DNA of 64,000 nucleotides, from contig NC_042998.1 of the NCBI RefSeq assembly GCF_006345805.1, positions 10,974,001 to 11,038,000 of the forward strand, in the 5' to 3' direction. The translations under genes and the position numbers were made by a program. Below the pieces are notes generated by a model. That model saw only the letters and a program-made list of their open reading frames with translations. It was not told the origin of the DNA and ran no database searches. The stretch comes from Octopus sinensis. Taxonomy: Eukaryota. This document shows, piece by piece, positions 1,224 through 59,620 of this stretch (positions within the stretch are counted from its first letter, which is position 1; each line of letters opens with the position of its first letter).

Positions 1224-1253
1224 GAAAAAAAGCAACAAGAATGGATTAAAATA

Positions 1254-1334
1254 TCGGTACAATTGTTTCGTACGAGGACGTCTTTAATAGGCTACAAAAA
1301 ATGCAGTAAATATAGATGGCTACTCGTCAGCCGA
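1254..1334 (-). ncRNA. Type I hammerhead ribozyme in a ~345 bp element flanked by (TA)n (1223-1567)
   Basis: Minus strand: TCGG-CTGACGA-GTA..(47 nt)..TAC-GAAA-C-AATT-GTA-CCGA. Stem I is TCGG/CCGA and loop 3 is palindromic. Confidence 0.8.
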
Positions 1335-1567
1335 AAAAACATCAGAGATTCCCAAACATCAAAAGGGGGTAGATACAAATGAGGGTGTGAGTTTAAGTGC
1401 AATTGAAGAAAGTTCGATTCCTGGAGATCCGATGAAAGGTCTTGAACATACAGAATTTGTGCATGTCCATATATAGCTCATAGTGAATTGTTAATCAAGT
1501 TATGTGAAGAAATTTTGGATATATGTGAGTTCATTAGAATTCACTTGAATCTCAATTACTCAAACCG

Positions 1568-1604
<37 letters not shown>

Positions 1605-5742: not shown

Positions 5743-7462
5743 ATCATTCATCATCATTGTTCGACAGTGGTCGAGACAATGGAATTTACCATGCTACGCC
5801 AGACTTCACGGTCCATCATGGCATTACGGAGGTCCTGTTGCTGGATGCCTGTATCCCTGGAGATTACATCAGGGTAGGAGAGTGTGCGCCCTCTGGTATT
5901 GCGAGTAGATGGCTTTTCAGCTCTACAACAATGTCCAGCAAACTGGACTCTCCTACCTTTCACAAGAGATGACACAGGTGGTAGTTTCCCATATATCTGC
6001 ATTTTGGTTTGATGGCGCTTCCACGAGAGATTTTGAGCTCTCATAAGGAGGCGAGTGTAGGTTCCATCCAACCGCCTCTCAAGCTTCTTTGATAACGTCC
6101 AGGTTTCTGAGCCATATAGTAGAATTGGTTCGACTGTGGCTTTGAATATTTCAAGTTTGAAGTCTCTACTTAGATTTGATGACCAGATCTTATGCATGTC
6201 ATTACAGGCTGACCAGGCCATACACTTTCTAGTTAGAAAGTCTTTTCCAGATGATGATATGTATGACCCAAGATATTTATAATCAGAAAAACATATTTAA
6301 AGGCGCACTGTTGAGAGTATGGATGATGATGCAATCACTGTTGGACAGGCACTTGTTTATGTATTCAGTTTTGGTCTCATTGAGGTAAAGACCTACACAA
6401 TTTGAGGCTTGTTCAAGAGATTGTAAAAGAGACTGGGCATTGGAGAGAGAATCACTGATAAGAGCGATGTCGTCAGCAAAGTCAGTATCTGTCAAGTACT
6501 CAGCTGGGTGTCTGGAACTTCTTCTTGGTTATATTTCAAAGCCCTTGCCAGAGATGATATCAACTGACATACGTAGCACATAATCAACAACAATGATGAA
6601 AAGAAATGGGGCGAGTGTGTCTCCCTGCAGTATTCCGGCTTTGATTGAGAAAGATGATGTTTCTCCGTCAGGGGTTAAGATGGTTGAAAACGTATCTGTG
6701 TAGAGGACCTTGATGGCAGAAATGATTTTGTCTGGTATCCCATAGAGCTTAAGGATTTCAAACATCTTGTACCTATATAGAGAATCGAACGCTTTAGAAA
6801 AGTCTACAAATACCACTGCAAGATCGCGATTAAATGCTTTTGATTCTTCAATAAGTCTGCGTAGGCATAGTATCTGGCTCAGCGTTGAGCGCCCATGTCT
6901 GAATCCATTTTGGTTCTTTCGGAGCAAAGGTTCAACAAAAAGGACAAGACGATTTAGGATCAGTTTGTTGTACAGTTTTGCAGCAATTGACATTAGAGAT
7001 ATACCCCTGTAGTTGGTTGACGAGGGATAAATCGCCTTTTTGGGTATTGGAATGATTTGAGATTGGTGCCAAATCTTTTGGAGCGACAAAGGTGGAAAGG
7101 TTGTGGTTGCAGGGTTGAGCAAAAGTGTGTGAAATCTATCATCCTTCCAAATTACAGCTGGGATGTTGTCGGGACCAAATGCTTTCGAGGCTTTTAGTTG
7201 CTTGGTAGCTGCTGTTAGTTCAAATATAGTAAAAGGGGAGGTGTTGATGTCCAGCGTGTCTGATATAGGCACACTTGGAAGAGTGGGGTTATCAGGGATT
7301 TTGGCATTCTTCCCAAGGAGGTTTTTAAAATGGGTTGACCAATTTTCTAAACGCTTCTTAGCTGATCCCCCTTTAATTCTAATTCATGACCCACAATTTT
7401 TGCCTGATGGGTCTTTGATGGATTTCCAGGCGAGATGGTGTTTTTTACTAATGTGCTCTTTG
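5743..7462 (-). mobile_element. 5'-truncated RTE/RTE-X LINE, frameshifted reverse transcriptase pseudogene
   Basis: ORFs contain NYRGISL, QNGFRHGRST, FVDFSKAFDS, GILQGDTLAPFLF, DFADDIAL and ILLYGSETWTL. Ends in an (ATG)n tail near 5745. Confidence 0.95.
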
Positions 7463-9579: not shown

Positions 9580-9993
9580 AGGCGGGGAGCTGGCAGAAAC
9601 GTTAGCACGCCGGGCGAAATGCGTAGCCGTATTTCGTCTGCCGCTACGTTCTGAGTTCAAATTCCGCCGAGGTCGACTTTGCCTTTCATCCTTTCGGGGC
9701 GATAAATTAAGTACCAGTTACGCGCTGGGGTCGATGTAATCGACTTAATCCGTTTATCTGTCCTTGCTTGTCCTCTCTGTGTTTAGCTCCCTGTGGGTAG
9801 TAAAGAAATAGGTATTTCGTCTGCCATTACGTTCTGAGTTCAAATTCCGCCGAGGTCGACTTTGCCTTTCATCCTTTCGGAGTCGATAAATTAAGTACCA
9901 GTTACGCGCTGGGTCGATGTAATCGACTTAATCCGTTTGTCTGTCCTTGCTTGTCCCCTCCATGTTTAGCCCCTTGTGGGCAATAAAGAAATA
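9580..9993 (+). mobile_element. SINE family B with a tandemly duplicated 183 bp body
   Basis: GTATTTCGTCTGCC at 9629 and 9812. Confidence 0.9.
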
Positions 9994-10654
9994 TATATTT
10001 AAAGGAGTTAGCTTTGTTTCAGGTATGCATATCAGGTCTCCAAACTGAGGATTAATAGATATCTTGCTATGCGGCTTTCTACAGCAACAGCCAACTTACG
10101 AGTCATAGTTTCTTTCTATTCCCTCTCCCTGATAAGGTTCATACAAAAATTATGGTGTTCATCTTTCCTTATATCAATAAACCATGACAAAATATAAACA
10201 AATATTGTCCATTAAAATGCATACCACGTGTTTATTGTTAGTTCTAAATTTTAAGACAGTATATTCGCTAATGCAAACAAAATGCCAATAGTCAGCTATG
10301 CAAATTCAATAATAATTAAGTCAGCGCCTTTCATGGAATTCTGACTGAGGATCAATCAACTGCAAATGTTATAACAACAAAAATCGGAGCTATATTAATA
10401 ATTTCACGTTCTATAATTATAATTTAGCAAATTAAAACCCGAGAAAAAGGAATAGAATATTTAAATATGAAAATATAAAGCGTAAACAAATAATCTCAAA
10501 ATGTAAAATTAACAGAACGGAAAGAGTAGAGACCTGAAGAATAGAAAGATTTATTGAAACAAGATATGAAATTTTATATTGATTTCTTAAATTGGAACAA
10601 GGTTATAAATTCCAAGAATTGATGTGCTTGACTATATCGTATCGAGTCAGAATT

Positions 10655-32399: not shown

Positions 32400-32830
32400 T
32401 ACCCTATAAATGCTGGGTGTTGTACTTAAATAAGGAAAAAAACCAGCTGAATAAGATTTTCTTCACTCATTATAATTATCAATATTTTAACATGATCATG
32501 CTCATATGGGTGTACGCGTTGTGGTGTTACCTGAAATGTGATCATAGGCGTTCTAACCATGGCCACAACGTACTTCAGTCGGGAGTTGAGTATCTCGGAT
32601 TAAATTAGCTGATGCCCCCCCCCCCCATTTCCAAGAAGTTAGGATAATGTAGAGGACATTAGCAGTTTTAGAGATTATGTAGTCCCCTTCGTTGATATGT
32701 GGCTACATGTACAAGTTGATACACAGACACGCGCGTGCGTACACACATGTATATACACAATACATATATCTATATGTATATACATACATACATACATACA
32801 TACATACATACATACATACATACATACATA

Positions 32831-33371
32831 ATAGTCTTAGACTATTTTATCTTTCTCACTAGACCGCTAGTAGCAGAAAATAGAATTTTTTTGCTACCCT
32901 GATATTTATTAATTAATGATTTTTTAGCTAATTTTGAAATTAAATCAGCAGTTAATATTTGCTACTGAGAAAACTGCGCGGTAGCGGTGGATTTTGAAAA
33001 TTTAGAGCATATTGGCTTGAGGCTTCCTTGCTGTAGCCTCGAGGACATATTCTCGTCCTAGGCTTCTCTGCTGATGAGACACGCCAGTTGTAAGCAAATT
33101 TAATTTGATTGATTTGGTTACCAAAGTTTGTCGAAACAATGCATAGTCCAGAGATGAAAAGGGGTAAATGTTTTTATTTCTCTTCCAATTTCAGAATTAC
33201 AACTATTTAGCGGTTTGAGTTTGGCTGCTCTTTCTAGTGAGTCGAATGGCCTATCAGGGCCATTCCTATATTGTTGAATGTATATTATATAGTCTTTGAC
33301 TACTTTCTCTTTCTCACTAGACCGCTGGCAGCGGAAAAAAATTTTTCTAGAATTTTTTTGCTACCCTGATA
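32831..33371 (+). mobile_element. 458 bp HHR-bearing monomer with a ~75-80 bp terminal direct repeat (retrozyme or non-autonomous Penelope-like)
   Basis: 32831-32904 is repeated at 33289-33371. HHR at 33066-33153. Microsatellites on both sides. Confidence 0.8.
33066..33153 (+). ncRNA. Type I hammerhead ribozyme, canonical core
   Basis: CTCTG-CTGATGA-GACA..(47 nt)..TGTC-GAAA-C-AATGCATA-GTC-CAGAG. Confidence 0.88.
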
Positions 33372-33375
33372 CATA

Positions 33376-33446
<71 letters not shown>

Positions 33447-37189: not shown

Positions 37190-38455
37190 ACAGGTCATCC
37201 CGTAAGTTCTGTCCGATCTTACCTTTTCTAAAACTGAATGAAATTTAATGGTGTTTTAGAATGTCTAATGGAATTAAAATAATTTTTATGCATTCGTGTA
37301 CATTTAAACTAATTAAATATTATTTTACAGAATAAAAGAATTAAAATTTCTTTCATTAAAACCCTTTCTAACATGGAAGTATCCAAAGAGCATTCGAGGC
37401 ACATAATGCTTTATGAGAACAAAAAGGAAACTCTGAGCCGAAGCGACTCGAAACATGAATTCAGTTTAAGGGAAAGAATGCTTGAATGAAAGAACTTGCA
37501 GTAGATGGTTTGCAAAATTCAGAAGTGGAGATTTCAGCCTTGAAGATGAAGATCGAAAAGGACGTGCACTTGAGTTTGATGATAAGCTCCTTGAGGCATT
37601 ACTTGAAGAAAATTTTGCATTATCAGTTGACGAATTGGCAATAAAGCTTAGTTTAAACCATACAATTGTTCATTGTCATCTTCAACAAGTTGGAAAGGTT
37701 CATGAACTTGGAAAATGGGTGCCTCATGAATTGTCCGAATGCAACCGCGAATCCCGAGTTGACATCTGCTCTTCTCTCCATTCTCGCCGACTCATTTCAC
37801 ACTTTTTGGATAGACTTGTGACTGGTGACGAAAAAAGGGTCTTCTATCGAAATGTTAAACGTCGTAAGCAGTGGCTTGGTAAAAGGGAAAAAGCTCAACC
37901 ACATAGGAAAAAGGTTCTTCTCTCTATCTGGTGAGATTGCAAAGGAGTAATTCGCTTTGAATTGTTACCACCTAATGCAACAATCAATACTCAAGTCTAC
38001 TGTCAGCAATTAGAGCTTTTGAACCAAGCTTTGAAGAAAAAAAGACCTGGTTTAGTGAATCGAAATGGAGTGATGTTTAATCAGGACAATGTGCGGCTCC
38101 ACACTGCAAAGATCACATCACAGAAGATCGGAGAGCTTGGTTGGGAAAAACTTCCTCATACAGCTTATTCTCCCGACCTTGCTCCTTCAGACTATCATTT
38201 GTTTCGTAGTTTACAGAATCATTTGGGGGACATAACTTTCGCAAGTCAGGAGGAGGTCGAAACTGACATTTCAGAGTTCTTCGCTTTGAAACCAAAATAG
38301 TTTTATATTGATGGGATTAAAAAGCTTGTAATTAGATGGAAGGAAGTAATAGATAATCCAGGAAAGTACATTGATGATTAAATTTCAATTAAATATAACA
38401 TTTGATCACTTGTTTTCTTTATTCAAAATTCGAACAGAACTTATGGAAACCGGAT
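37190..38455 (+). mobile_element. Near full-length mariner (D,D34D-type) with pseudogenised transposase (37373-38381)
   Basis: WVPHEL, LVTGDEK, QDNVRLHT and YSPDLAPSDYHLFRSL motifs. Imperfect TIRs CCCGTAAGTTCTGTCCGA / TCGAACAGAACTTATGG. In-frame stops and a frameshift. Confidence 0.95.
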
Positions 38456-40565: not shown

Positions 40566-41320
40566 GAGCGAGCTGGCAGAAACGTCAGCACGCCGGGCGA
40601 AATGCGTAGCCATATTTTGTCTGCCGTTACGTTCTGAGTTCAAATTTCGCCGAGGTCGACTTTGCCTTGCATCCTTTTGGGGTCGATAAATTAAATACCA
40701 GTTACGCACTGGTTTCGATCTAATCGACTTAAGCCATTTGTCTGTCCTTGTTTGTCCCCTCTGTGTTTAGCCCTTTGCGGGCCGTAAAGAAATAGGTATT
40801 TCGTCTACCGCTACGTTCTGAGTTCCAATTCCGCCGAGGTCGACTTTGCCTTTCATCCTTTTGGGGTCGATAAATTAAATACCAGTTACGCACTGGGGTC
40901 GATCTAATCGACTTAATCCATTTGTCTGTCCTTGTTTGTCCCCTCTGTGTTTAGCCCCTTGCGGGTCGTAAAGAAATAGGTATTTCGTCTGCCGCTACGT
41001 TCTGAGTTCAAATTCCGCCGAGGTCGACTTTGCCTTTCATCCTTTTGGGGTCGATAAATTAAATACCACTTACGCACTGGGGTCGATCTAATCGACTTAA
41101 TCCATTTGTCTGTCTTTGTTTGTTCCCTCTGTGTTTAGCCCCTTGTGGGTCGTAAAGAAATTGGTATTTCGTCTGCCGCTACGTTCTGAGTTCAAATTCC
41201 GCCGTGGTTGACTTTGCTTTCGATGAAACAAGTACCAGTTACGCTCTGGGGTCGATGTAATCGAGTAACCCCCTTCCCCCAAAATTTTCAAGGCCTTGTA
41301 CCTAGAGTAGAAATTATTAT
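40566..41320 (+). mobile_element. SINE family B with about four tandem 184 bp bodies
   Basis: Unit starts at 40612, 40796, 40980 and 41164. Confidence 0.92.
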
Positions 41321-46206: not shown

Positions 46207-46873
46207 AAAGAAATAATAATTTTAGGGCAAGAAAACTGCGAGAGAACGTGGTTAGCATGGAAAAAGCAGAAACAGAGTGGCACACAAAAGAACGGAACTA
46301 AAAAACGAATACACGATAATGGAAGAGAAAGAAACATAAAACTTGAATAAGAAGAAGTAGTAACCGGTGGAACTAAGATAACAGTGGTTATAATTATATA
46401 TAATGGGAAAGGAGTGCTGTAGGGAATAGAAAGTTGAGCGTTTTCAGATGATCAGCCAAACTAGTTATAGGCTGTACTTTGTGAGTTACATGCACAATAA
46501 TCCTGCCAGCGTCTTCACTCTTGAGCCATCGGACACAGCCGTATGATTAAAACCATTTAGTTATGCATGTCTCTTCACATCCTGCAAAGATCAAAAACTA
46601 AATGTAGCATGTCCCGTAAGTACTCCATCATACTTGAAGAGAGTCATCAACACCCAAAATCTAGATAACGTTTAATCAGCACTGCAACTACTGCAAGGTC
46701 ACTAACTGAACCGCTTCAGTTAATCAGCAATTCTTGTCATTTGACAAAATGATAATCAGCAATTTTGCAGAACTTTTTTCCTTCTACATCATTTCTCAAA
46801 TTCTGAGAGAAAAACTGCGGTACAAAAAAGTCTTTGCTTCTGCTGACTGCATGATATACAACTCTAACCTGCA

Positions 46874-47471
46874 TACACTTGATAAATTTTCTCAAAAAAT
46901 GTCCCTTTCTAACCACCAGATTCAGCTTCTTGTATACACTCTATGTCACGCTGGTGAGACCCATATTGGAGTACGGGATTCAAGTCTCTTCTCCTTATCT
47001 CCTCAAAGACATACAGCATCTCGAAAGAGTCCAGAAGCTGGCTACCCGCATGGTTCTTGGACTCAAGAATTTGTCTTATGAAGAAAGGCTGAAGACGCTC
47101 AACCTTTATTCTCTAGAAAAACAACGACACCGTGGTGATCTCATTCTTGCTCACAGCATCATAAGCGGAAAGTGTAACTTCTCGAAAGAGCTATTCTTCA
47201 CTCCTGCTCCAGAGCGTCGGCTGCGGGGTCACTCCGAAGAGCTCTATCTGCGACGATTTCATCTCAATCGAAGGAGAGGGACTTTCTCCGTCCGGGTTGC
47301 GGATCTGTGGAATAAGCTGCCAGACGAGATGGTGAAGATGCCGACGACCGCTCGGTTCAAGTGGCCTGAACTCTTTACATGAACACCACCCTGTACATAA
47401 CTCCATGTCCCCCTACATGGCCTTGCTTTTTGCTTTTTGAGCCAAAAAATTAACTAACTAACTAACTAACA
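46874..47471 (+). mobile_element. 3' end of a CR1-clade LINE
   Basis: LYVTLVRPILEYG..SPYL.KDIQHLERVQKLATRMV.GLKNLSYEERLKTLNLYSLE..R.RGDLI..FSVRVADLWNKLP, then an (AACT)n tail. Confidence 0.93.
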
Positions 47472-49612: not shown

Positions 49613-49675
49613 ATACACAGACACGCAAATACATACACACAGACTCACAATATATGTGGTGTGTATATATATATA

Positions 49676-49717
<42 letters not shown>

Positions 49718-49722
<5 letters not shown>

Positions 49723-50542
49723 TCAATATAGGGTGGCAAAAAAAATTTTGTAGAACTTTTTTGCCACCAGCGGCCTAGTGGGAAAAAATTAAATAGTCAT
49801 AGACCATTTTAAGTTCAACATCAAACAATCAAGGAACGGCCATAATAGGCCATTCACCCACTAGAAATAACGCCAAAGCTTCAACCGCAAATAAAAGTCA
49901 ATTCCGTAAACAGGAGAAAATTTAAAAAACATTACAGGGTAAATGTTTTTAAATTTTCTCCTGTTTACGGAATTGACTTTATTTGCGGTTGAAGGTTTGA
50001 AGCTTTGGCTGTTATTTCTAGTGGGTGAATGGCCTATTATGGCGTTCCTTGATTGTTGATGTTGAACTTAAAAATGGTCTATGACTATTAATTTTTTCCC
50101 ACTAGGCCGCTGGTGGCAAAAAAATTCTACAAAAGTTTTTTGCCACCCTATATTGATTAATTATGAATTTTCTGGTAATTCGTAATGGAATCGACGGCTT
50201 ATATTTATTTGCTGCCGATAAATTTGGCGCGAGTGCGATGATTTGAAAATTTTAGGTCAGATATTACCTGGCAGGGTCGGAAATGCCTCGTGAAAAAATC
50301 TGTTCCGACTTGTGGCTATTTCTTACTGAAGAATCTGAGGGGCTATGGAAGATTGGCTTGATTTAATTTAATCAGTTAGTTTACCATTAAACACGCAGAT
50401 GAAACGGGTGCATCGTATAAGAAATTACAGGGTAAATGTTTTTTAATTTTCTCTGTTTACGGAATTGACTTGTATTTGCGGTTTTGAAGCTTTGGTGTTA
50501 TTTCTAGTGGGTGAATGGCCTATTATGGCCGTCCTTGATTGT

Positions 50543-50545
<3 letters not shown>
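49718..50545 (+). mobile_element. 493 bp HHR-bearing monomer, partial tandem with an inverted 5' portion
   Basis: Inverted arms at ~49718-49933 and 49942-50160. ATTACAGGGTAAATG at 49931 and 50424. HHR at 50318-50425. (TA)n on both sides. Homologous to 32831-33371. Confidence 0.85.
50318..50425 (+). ncRNA. Type I hammerhead ribozyme, canonical core
   Basis: ATTTCTTA-CTGAAGA-ATCTG..(58 nt)..CAGAT-GAAA-CGGGTGCATC-GTA-TAAGAAAT. Stem I is 8 bp and stem II is 5 bp. Confidence 0.88.
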
Positions 50546-50583
<38 letters not shown>

Positions 50584-50641
50584 TAAACTTGGAAAGGGAT
50601 GCGTGGCATTCAATCATATAATATAAGTAAATATATATATC

Positions 50642-50694: not shown

Positions 50695-50900
50695 AACGGG
50701 AAGCTTTATGAAAATAAACAAAAGACGAAGGCAGGTGGAGTACAAACAAACAATTGTATTAGTATGGCGCTCAGGAATATAAATAAAACAAGTCTTTTAC
50801 GTTTCGAGCCTACGCTCTTCAACAAAAAGATACAGAGAAAAGAAACACAGAGAGAAACAAGGAGAGAAAAAAATGCGTGCAGAAGCTAGCGATTCAACAT
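50695..50900 (-). repeat. Copy of the 18205-18405 family with a minimal HHR variant at 50794-50830
   Basis: Minus strand: TCTTTTTGTTGAAGAGCGTAGGCTCGAAACGTAAAAGAC. Confidence 0.8.
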
Positions 50901-50920
50901 GTAATTATAATTACATACAT

Positions 50921-51090
50921 AATTATAACAAAGGCTTAGCTTGCGCCTCACCACGCACTGAAAAATAGACGTCAATAGACACTATTGCGAAAATAAATTC
51001 TCCGACACTTTACACATAGGAGGCAATAGTGTCTTTTGACGTCTATTTTTCAGTGCATGGTGAGGCGCAAGCCAAGCCCTTGTTATAATT
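50921..51090. repeat. Fold-back/MITE-like element (68 bp arms)
   Basis: 50921-50988 is the reverse complement of 51023-51090 with few mismatches. Confidence 0.9.
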
Positions 51091-58392: not shown

Positions 58393-59620
58393 TTTTCTTA
58401 CCTGTTGCTTTGCCACTGAACGATCGGTACGCCAAGGGTGCCCTCTCTCCCCGCTTCTCTAAGTTTTGGCCCTAGAGCCATTGCTGAGGAAGTTGGAAGC
58501 TACGAAGGGCGCCCGCAAGATCTAGGGTGCGGAAAGTCAACTTCGGTGTATATGGACGACATCACCGTCATCGTATCCAGGGTCGAGCACCTACAGTGGG
58601 TAGGTGAGGCCTTAAGGGATTACGAAGCGGTGGAAGGAGCCAACTCGGCACCTGGAGGGACAAGTCGATGCCTTCCGACAGCGTCGTGGGACGTTGGACG
58701 GAAGGGCCAGTGAAAATGCTTGGAGTCTGGTTAGATCCAGATCTCCAGATAGAGAAGAATTGGAGCGAGGTGGCGAGCAAGGTAGCTCTTCTAACTCAGA
58801 CCTGGTCTGAGCAGAGGCTGTCCTTAAAAGGGAGGACAGAGGTTGCAGAGGTGTTTATTGCCTCTGTAATCACTTACCGCCTAACCGTCGTGCCTTGCCC
58901 CGATTCGTGGCTGAACAAGCTGGAACGCATGCTCTTTCGCTTTTTGTGGAGGGGCAGCAGACCCCCTGTAAGGCGGTCTATCAGCTGTTAAAAGTCACTG
59001 AAGTGTGGGCTAGTGATGCCATGGCTAAAAATGCGCAGACAAGCGCTCAGGCTTAGGCATCTCTGGCTTTACCTGGACGGTGAGCAGGTGTGGTCTCCGT
59101 TCGTCAAGCTGTTATTTCGACAGTTCACATCGTTTACCAAACTGAACCCATGGATCAAGTGCAGACCCAGGTTGGGCGTGTGGCATGCGGAATGCCATCA
59201 GGCACTCGTGCTTCTCTCCCAGTCGGGCAACGCCGGTGGCGGGGGTACTACCTCGTTCTTCTATAGAGGGTTAGTAGAGTTCAAGTGTAACGACGTTCTG
59301 GGAGAAACCCTAGGCTTCGACGTAGATCAACTGGCCAACCTGTTCCAAAGAACATTCGGGCCGGGGCCTATGGATAATTACCAAAAGTCCCTGGCCTGGC
59401 AATGTTAGAGAGGAGCTTTACCGGTTCGAGATAGGCCCTGTAGACATGGGTGTGCGCCTTCGCCAGATTGTGCAAGATGCGAGCAGGACAGTGAAACTGT
59501 CCTGCACGCGATTGTGCAATGCCTCAAGGTGAATGAACTCTGGGCTTATGTCAAACACCTGCTGTCGCATTCGTGAAGAGTACAACTGTCGTGCGAATCT
59601 GTAATTAAGCTCGTTCCGCT
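58393..59620 (+). mobile_element. Decayed Tx1/L1-clade LINE ORF2 fragment (RT C-terminus plus CCHC zinc knuckle)
   Basis: YMDDITVIVS, VKMLGVW, LSLKGR...FIASVITY, FRFLW, ALPVRDR...CARCEQDSETVLHAIVQC. GC-rich relative to its flanks. Confidence 0.88.

What the first reader, a model, noticed from the sequence alone, without database searches (positions are those of the whole stretch)
32831..33371. Two diverged relatives (458 and 493 bp monomers) whose ribozyme stems covary
Seen: this element and 49718-50545 share blocks in the same cyclic order (GGTAAATGTTTTT; GCGGTT..TTTGGCTG....TTCTAGTG.GT.GAATGGCCTAT; CACTAG.CCGCTGG; TTTTTTGC.ACCCT). Their HHR stems differ in sequence yet remain paired: stem I CTCTG/CAGAG versus TCTTA/TAAGA, stem II GACA/TGTC versus ATCTG/CAGAT, both with a TGCA-centred loop 3. 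The two copies begin at different points of the cycle and each overshoots one unit. Inference: the ribozyme structure is under selection, and the permuted ends hint at a circular intermediate.
Basis: partly seen in the sequence, partly recalled or inferred. Interest (0 to 1): 0.8.

Follow-up and report, generated by a model that had tools for sequence, protein, structure and literature searches.

The report
Ribozyme repeat with fixed Penelope-type ends
These are two copies of related, protein-free jumping repeats that carry a predicted self-cutting RNA whose stems have changed in matched pairs; their ends are not shuffled around a circle but stop at two fixed points, so they are likely pasted in by a borrowed Penelope-type retrotransposon enzyme, a known kind of element.

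Summary
Both elements carry a type I hammerhead, are about 65-78% alike and belong to a large dispersed family (4,940 motif hits against 2 in the control). Stems covary: 10 of 13 pairs change on both sides, with about 21 pair swaps on a tree. The 'permuted ends' inference fails. In 94 insertions, 147 of 153 arms end at one of two fixed 3' sites (about +130 and +220 to +240 from the cleavage site), while 5' ends are random. In 55 of 59 two-armed insertions one arm ends at each site, never both at the same site. Copy A ends at site 2; copy B's forward arm ends at site 1 and it has an unnoticed inverted arm (49718-49933) ending at site 2. With TA-repeat targets, this is the insertion footprint of Penelope-like elements. 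Best reading: non-LTR retrozymes mobilised in trans by a Penelope-like enzyme. A circular template is plausible from other evidence (seamless junctions, array-private variants) but unproven. No partner element or RNA was shown. The class is known, and this scan noted the same pattern before on other DNA of this genome.

The parts
32831..33371 (+). Element A: single-armed insertion, 1.18 units of a 458-bp monomer; 5' end just after site 1, 3' end at site 2 (about 9 nt short of the usual end)
33065..33154 (+). Type I hammerhead of A; core CTGATGA 33071-33077, GAAA 33133-33136, predicted cleavage after 33148; this copy has an A.A mismatch in stem III where sisters pair T-A
33244..33279 (+). Hairpin 1 and fixed 3' site 1 (about +130 from cleavage); internal in this copy
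33327..33371 (+). Hairpin 2 and fixed 3' site 2; right end of A
32780..32830 (.). (ATAC)n left flank of A
33378..33446 (.). (TC)n(TA)n right flank of A
49718..49933 (-). Inverted arm of element B; 3' end at site 2, 5' end at about +19; no ribozyme
49931..50546 (+). Forward arm of element B, 1.25 units of a 493-bp monomer; 5' end at about +8, 3' end at site 1
50318..50425 (+). Type I hammerhead of B; core CTGAAGA 50326-50332, predicted cleavage after 50417; one extra G in stem III that 124 of 134 sister units lack
49664..49719 (.). (TA)n left flank of B
50545..50585 (.). (TA)n right flank of B

Best explanation
A and B are copies of two subfamilies of one non-coding, hammerhead-bearing repeat (a non-LTR retrozyme) that is likely copied into TA microsatellites in trans by the reverse transcriptase and GIY-YIG endonuclease of a Penelope-like element. 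Shown: the hammerhead fold is conserved by compensatory changes; 3' ends lie at two fixed, homologous sites about 100 nt apart, each just after a hairpin and a CT-NN-ATT-like word; 5' ends are random; two-armed insertions use one site per arm; both arms share one haplotype; arms run through the cleavage site without a scar. Inferred: the enzyme nicks both strands of an AT-rich target, primes one cDNA at site 1 and the other at site 2 of the RNA, and the two cDNAs join head to head at random points. Inferred, less sure (about 0.55): the template is a monomer circle made by hammerhead cleavage and ligation of transcripts from copies with two or more ribozymes, and is read round repeatedly. Each window copy holds only one ribozyme, so neither would release a monomer by itself.
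For: 147 of 153 arm 3' ends at site 1 (78) or site 2 (69); 71 of 72 in the set taken in chromosome order. 55 of 59 two-armed insertions have one arm at each site, 0 have both at the same site. 5' ends uniform, Rayleigh p about 0.22. 131 of 153 3' flanks are TA-rich against 3% at locus edges. The same layout is described for endonuclease-bearing Penelope-like elements: 5' truncation, inverted 5'-truncated arm, tail at one end only, microsatellite bias (PMC8557442, passages; PMC3846280, passages); two internal RT start sites downstream of the hammerhead define the tail and both DNA strands are cut and extended in vitro (PMC11167929, passages and second part of the main text). Long RT plus GIY-YIG frames of 775-883 aa exist in this genome (4 of 5 tested match both Pfam families). 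No coding capacity: longest stop-free frames 80 and 49 aa. Covariation. For one template per insertion: units within an insertion are closer than the median other insertion in 59 of 61 cases and closer than the nearest other in 40 of 61; 7 of 18 B arrays with 3 or more units carry a variant in all their covered units and in no other sampled insertion, in both arms for L117 (8 of 8) and L123 (4 of 4). 143 of 153 arms cross the cleavage site; 1 of 134 B units has an indel at the junction.
Against: No autonomous partner was found: A and B have no similarity to 50 stretches around GIY-YIG hits (150 of 5,029 candidates were scored), and no family member among 177 loci is joined to a Penelope-like ORF (only flank fragments in L009 and L030). 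The tail is about 100 nt, not 30-40. The first pair of stem II is mismatched in 29 of 89 insertions, and stem III does not form in the predicted folds of the window copies. Against a strict single-unit template: two alleles alternate inside some arrays (L112 position 206, 5 of 11; L115; L130), 21 of 61 insertions are not closer within than to their nearest neighbour, and one arm of 6 tested shows a weak distance trend (L115, p 0.04). In the anole Penelope system unprocessed RNA is the main substrate and ribozyme mutants still insert (PMC11167929).
Confidence: 0.85

Rival explanations
1. Same element and enzyme, but the template is a long, uncleaved linear transcript of a tandem donor array; the hammerhead is kept for another step (or cuts only slowly or with protein help) and circles play no part.
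For: [quoted passage not shown]
Against: New variants fixed in every unit of an array, both arms included, need a single-unit step somewhere; A insertions L006 and L011 differ 0.9-1.4% within but 3.9-4.8% from their nearest neighbours; donors could only give arrays as long as themselves; no excess of 5' ends at the cleavage site, 4 of 153 within 5 nt against 3.5 expected.
Confidence: 0.35
2. One reading: a circular RNA is opened or primed at random points, giving circularly permuted insertions.
For: The two window copies do start and stop at different points and overshoot one unit; 5' ends are uniform round the unit.
Against: 147 of 153 3' ends at two sites covering 10.7% of the unit, at homologous places in subfamilies A, B and C; older relatives end at the same two sites.
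Confidence: 0.03
3. A satellite or minisatellite amplified locally at the DNA level (unequal crossing-over), with the ribozyme a relic of a Penelope terminal repeat.
For: Long head-to-tail arrays, up to about 18 units; proposed as a route in bioRxiv 10.64898/2026.07.22.740005 (parts 1-3 of 5 read); units within arrays are alike.
Against: Dispersed on many chromosomes with precise shared ends, inverted second arms and TA targets; 5 of 6 long arms show no significant distance trend between neighbours; compensatory changes continue inside subfamilies.
Confidence: 0.07
4. Mobilised by a LINE (as a SINE-like element) rather than by a Penelope-like enzyme.
For: LINE-like fragments lie in the window (read by eye); 5' truncation is also a LINE trait (established knowledge).
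Against: No poly(A) or simple-repeat tail of its own; internal priming at two sites; head-to-head arms with separate 3' ends, unlike L1 twin priming, where the second arm starts inside the same transcript (recalled).
Confidence: 0.05

Closest known systems
Metazoan non-LTR retrozymes (Cervera and de la Pena 2020, PMC7229834, passages read; Li, Clavereau and Pollet, bioRxiv 10.64898/2026.07.22.740005, parts 1-3 of 5 read)
   Same: Type I hammerhead once per unit, non-coding, low GC (36-37%), dispersed monomers to multimers, well-paired unit (circular fold z -3.5 to -5.7), Penelope-like elements proposed as the mobiliser.
   Different: Unit of 460-490 bp, slightly above the 150-450 bp of the 2020 paper but within the 51-972 bp of the preprint; very long stem II; cleavage and circles not shown here; no homologous Penelope terminal repeat found; the passages read do not map insertion ends.
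Insertions of endonuclease-bearing Penelope-like elements (PMC8557442 and PMC3846280, passages; PMC11167929, passages and part 2 of the main text)
   Same: Fixed 3' ends with an optional tail, random 5' truncation, inverted head-to-head arm, tail on one end only, AT or TA targets, RT start sites downstream of a hammerhead.
   Different: No ORF; tail about 100 nt instead of 30-40; multi-unit arms; a full three-stem hammerhead rather than a minimal one.
Non-autonomous Chlamys elements such as MRC1 (PMC8557442, passage)
   Same: Non-autonomous Penelope-like derivatives with multicopy head-to-tail insertions.
   Different: Most Chlamys lack a canonical hammerhead and share 3' sequence with an autonomous family; no such partner was found here.

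Membership tests
Metazoan non-LTR retrozymes | Type I hammerhead in each unit | tested here: met
   123 of 134 B units have an intact 12-nt core
Metazoan non-LTR retrozymes | Head-to-tail repeats, dimers to multimers | tested here: met
   Family arrays up to about 18 units; the two window copies hold only 1.2 units and one ribozyme each
Metazoan non-LTR retrozymes | Small, low-GC, non-coding unit | tested here: met
   458 and 493 bp, GC 0.36-0.37, longest stop-free frames 80 and 49 aa
Metazoan non-LTR retrozymes | No LTR, primer-binding site or polypurine tract | not tested
   No scan for a primer-binding site was run; the terminal repeats seen are unit overshoots
Metazoan non-LTR retrozymes | Self-cleavage of the RNA | not testable with these tools
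   Needs in vitro transcription
Metazoan non-LTR retrozymes | Expressed as monomer circular RNA | tested here: inconclusive
   No run on record as RNA was listed, and contigs cannot show circles
Penelope-like element insertion footprint | Fixed 3' end(s) with tail, random 5' truncation | tested here: met
   147 of 153 3' ends at two sites; 5' ends uniform
Penelope-like element insertion footprint | Inverted 5'-truncated arm, tail at one end only | tested here: met
   59 of 94 insertions two-armed, 55 with one arm per site
Penelope-like element insertion footprint | AT-rich or microsatellite target | tested here: met
   131 of 153 3' flanks TA-rich, background 3%
Autonomous Penelope-like element | RT plus GIY-YIG ORF in cis | tested here: not met
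Derivative of a named Penelope-like family | Shared terminal-repeat sequence with an autonomous element | tested here: inconclusive
   None in 50 stretches around GIY-YIG hits, out of 5,029 candidates

The most novel reading that the evidence does not exclude
One small circular RNA is read by both subunits of a Penelope-like enzyme dimer at once: each primes from one nicked target strand at its own hairpin-marked site and rolls round the circle, so every insertion is a record of twin rolling-circle reverse transcription. The two start signals have changed in concert across subfamilies 35% apart (CTTATATT at both sites in A, CTAAATTG at both in C), which would define the RNA signal that a parasite circle needs to hijack a Penelope RT with no sequence homology to it.
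Probability: 0.4. Interest if true: 0.7.

Novelty: new member of a known kind. Interest (0 to 1): 0.42.

Why it matters
How animal retrozymes get into genomes is open: the 2020 paper names Penelope-like elements as a candidate and the 2026 preprint adds phylogenetic support in frogs but says that the mechanism remains to be worked out. This family gives insertion-level evidence, namely two fixed start sites and a strict one-arm-per-site rule kept across diverged subfamilies, and names the RNA region (+60 to +240 from the cleavage site) to test with an existing in vitro Penelope assay. The class and the Penelope footprint are each already described, and this scan has noted the pattern in this genome several times, so the gain is in rigour and in a testable signal rather than in a new system.

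Tried and rejected
Rfam: no hammerhead match. Search for an autonomous partner: a GIY-YIG family search, 20 wider stretches and blastn/tblastn found intact Penelope-like ORFs but none sharing sequence with A, B or C; a pattern with a shorter stem II found older non-coding relatives, a separate short-stem group and apparent chance hits; a pattern for the site-1 module gave 1,248 hits, of which the 100 listed look like B and C copies. RNA: no RNA holder listed; four runs only guessed to be RNA were laid as contigs, which shows nothing for or against expression or circles. Idea that 5' ends pile up at the cleavage site: rejected, 4 of 153 within 5 nt against 3.5 expected, 7 against 3.8 in a window chosen after looking (p 0.09). 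RNAalifold on the ribozyme alignment recovered stems I and III but not stem II, whose columns are split by gaps; stem II forms in 5 of 5 single-sequence folds. Core positions mutate in arrays at about the rate of other positions (0.0068 against 0.0088 per site), as expected for decay after insertion. R-scape was not available. Literature: a search for cephalopod + Penelope + hammerhead ribozyme gave only PMC8557442; searches listed no paper that maps retrozyme insertion ends (search listings only).

Full report
Observation. A (32831-33371) is 1.18 units of a 458-bp monomer between (ATAC)n and (TC)n(TA)n. B has a forward arm (about 49931-50546, 1.25 units of 493 bp) and an inverted arm (49718-49933) between (TA)n runs. 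A strict scan finds these 2 in the window and 0 in 30 shuffles. Rfam does not detect them.

Family. The window lies in a 2.72-Gb animal genome. DNA searches gave 2,040 candidates for A and 1,140 for B, of which 40 and 39 were scored. A hammerhead pattern (CTGANGA, 45-75 nt, GAAAC-NN-TGCA-NN-GTH) has 4,940 matches against 2 for the reversed control. The first 100 listed matches fall into 43 loci in 39 Mb of one chromosome; I fetched all 43 as a set not chosen by similarity: 28 map best to B, 9 to a third subfamily C (about 475 bp), 5 to A, and 1 is a distant relative. A and B monomers are 63-66% alike, C is 66-74% alike to both. B is young (1.65% substitutions between insertions); A is older and more diverse (7.5%). 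More distant relatives with the same layout exist. No member is joined to an ORF.

Covariation. In 49 distinct ribozyme rows, 95.1% of cells pair, 10 of 13 pairs change on both sides, and the covariation score is 0.609 against 0.05-0.21 for slid partners. The rows are related and the pattern fixes the core and two stem III pairs, so I also counted events: on a quick tree built from sequence outside the ribozyme, the 10 variable pairs need 21 swaps between Watson-Crick types, 1-4 per pair (24 of 46 inner branches are weakly supported, so the count is approximate). Swaps also occur inside subfamilies, for example A-U to G-C at the base of stem I in 4 B insertions. One pair is relaxed: the first pair of stem II is mismatched in 29 of 89 insertions. 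Stem III with its loop is a palindrome or near-palindrome in each subfamily (CTATGCATAG, CGATGCATCG, CGTTGCAACG, CGGTGCATCG), which would allow a dimeric ribozyme (recalled; a palindromic loop 3 is described for amphibian retrozymes in PMC7229834).

Ends. I mapped arms in 94 insertions (42 from the chromosome-order set, 26 A and 26 B from the similarity searches; left out: the distant relative L151, duplicates of one insertion, arrays cut by the fetched stretch, and one short extra piece each in L169 and L179; ten 5' positions were corrected by hand where internal palindromes inflated the match). Of 153 arms, 78 end at site 1 (+121 to +147 from cleavage), 69 at site 2 (+217 to +241) and 6 elsewhere. 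The windows were drawn after seeing the data, include some TA run-on and cover 10.7% of the unit. In the chromosome-order set the count is 71 of 72. Of 59 two-armed insertions, 55 have one arm at each site and none has both at the same site. The 5' ends are uniform (Rayleigh p about 0.22) with no excess at the cleavage site. 131 of 153 3' flanks are TA-rich against 3% background. Each site follows a hairpin and a similar word: CTTATATT at both sites in A, CTAAATTG at both in C, CTTGATTG and CTATATTG in B. So the ends are fixed, not permuted. A ends at site 2; B ends at site 1 on one side and site 2 on the other.

Mechanism. This is the layout described for endonuclease-bearing Penelope-like elements: 5' truncation, an inverted 5'-truncated arm, a tail at one end only, microsatellite targets (PMC8557442; PMC3846280; passages). 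In vitro, the anole element cuts and extends both DNA strands and starts reverse transcription at two internal sites downstream of its hammerhead, the stretch between them being the tail (PMC11167929). I infer that a Penelope-like enzyme primes one cDNA at each site from the two nicked strands and that the cDNAs join head to head. Long RT plus GIY-YIG frames exist in the genome, but no partner sharing sequence with the family was found in 50 stretches.

Template. Site 1 lies only 130 nt from the 5' end of a cleaved linear monomer, yet 143 of 153 arms run through the cleavage site and 1 of 134 units has an indel there, so the template is a circle or an uncleaved multimer. Units of one insertion are closer to each other than to the median other insertion in 59 of 61 cases and than to the nearest other in 40 of 61; opposite arms 32 of 48. 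Seven of 18 B arrays have a private variant in all covered units. This favours one unit read repeatedly, but a homogeneous donor array outside my sample would look the same, some arrays carry alternating alleles (possibly assembly noise), and unprocessed RNA is the main substrate in the anole system. I put the circle at about 0.55. Public runs gave nothing usable.

What is known. The element fits metazoan non-LTR retrozymes (PMC7229834, passages), which a 2026 preprint derives from Penelope terminal repeats (parts 1-3 of 5 read). All sequence-level criteria that I tested are met; cleavage and circles are untested. Earlier notes of this scan describe the same two-site, two-armed pattern on other DNA of this genome, including what appears to be subfamily B; my two-site reading was noted before that look-up, and those notes are not independent support.

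Verdict. A real, structured, mobile element and a new member of a known class. What this pair adds is that the two start sites and their signals are kept at homologous places across subfamilies about 35% apart. Interest 0.42.

Noticed in passing
window 1225-1570 (-): An unrelated piece between (TA)n runs with a hammerhead-like motif: core CTGACGA at 1330, palindromic CAATTG in stem III, predicted cleavage after 1258; likely the end of another Penelope-type family.
   Followed up: partly
window 50696-50990: Repeat just right of B, after a (TA)n run, with hammerhead-like core words on the minus strand near 50795-50825 (TTGAAGA ... GAAA); did not pass my scan.
   Followed up: no
window 9629-10000 and 40613-41221: Tandem 183/184-bp repeats, 2.0 and 3.3 copies, 92-95% alike.
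   Followed up: no
window 5754-7383 (-), 37470-38300 (+), 46855-47382 (+), 58608-59408 (+): Broken transposon frames that look by eye like LINE reverse transcriptases and a mariner-type transposase; not scanned.
   Followed up: no
L198-L227: Older relatives (about 67-83% to A) with a shorter stem II end at the same two sites and have inverted arms.
   Followed up: partly
L200, L207, L209-L216, L222, L224, L225: A separate group of short hammerhead-like motifs (CTGAGGAGAC...GAAACACTGCAGTGTC), clustered on one chromosome, with no similarity to A, B or C.
   Followed up: no
L114, L158, L010, L181 and window B: In several two-armed insertions both arms start at nearly the same point of the unit, making a near-perfect palindrome at the junction; palindromic junctions are described for rotifer Penelope elements (PMC3846280).
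   Followed up: partly
L020 (G000:C12:28223866-28227118): An A insertion repeated with about 1.4-kb spacing together with its flanks, apparently a later local duplication.
   Followed up: no
L091-L095: Several long uninterrupted Penelope-like ORFs (762-883 aa, RT then GIY-YIG) are present, some family members with identical-length 781-aa frames at several loci.
   Followed up: partly
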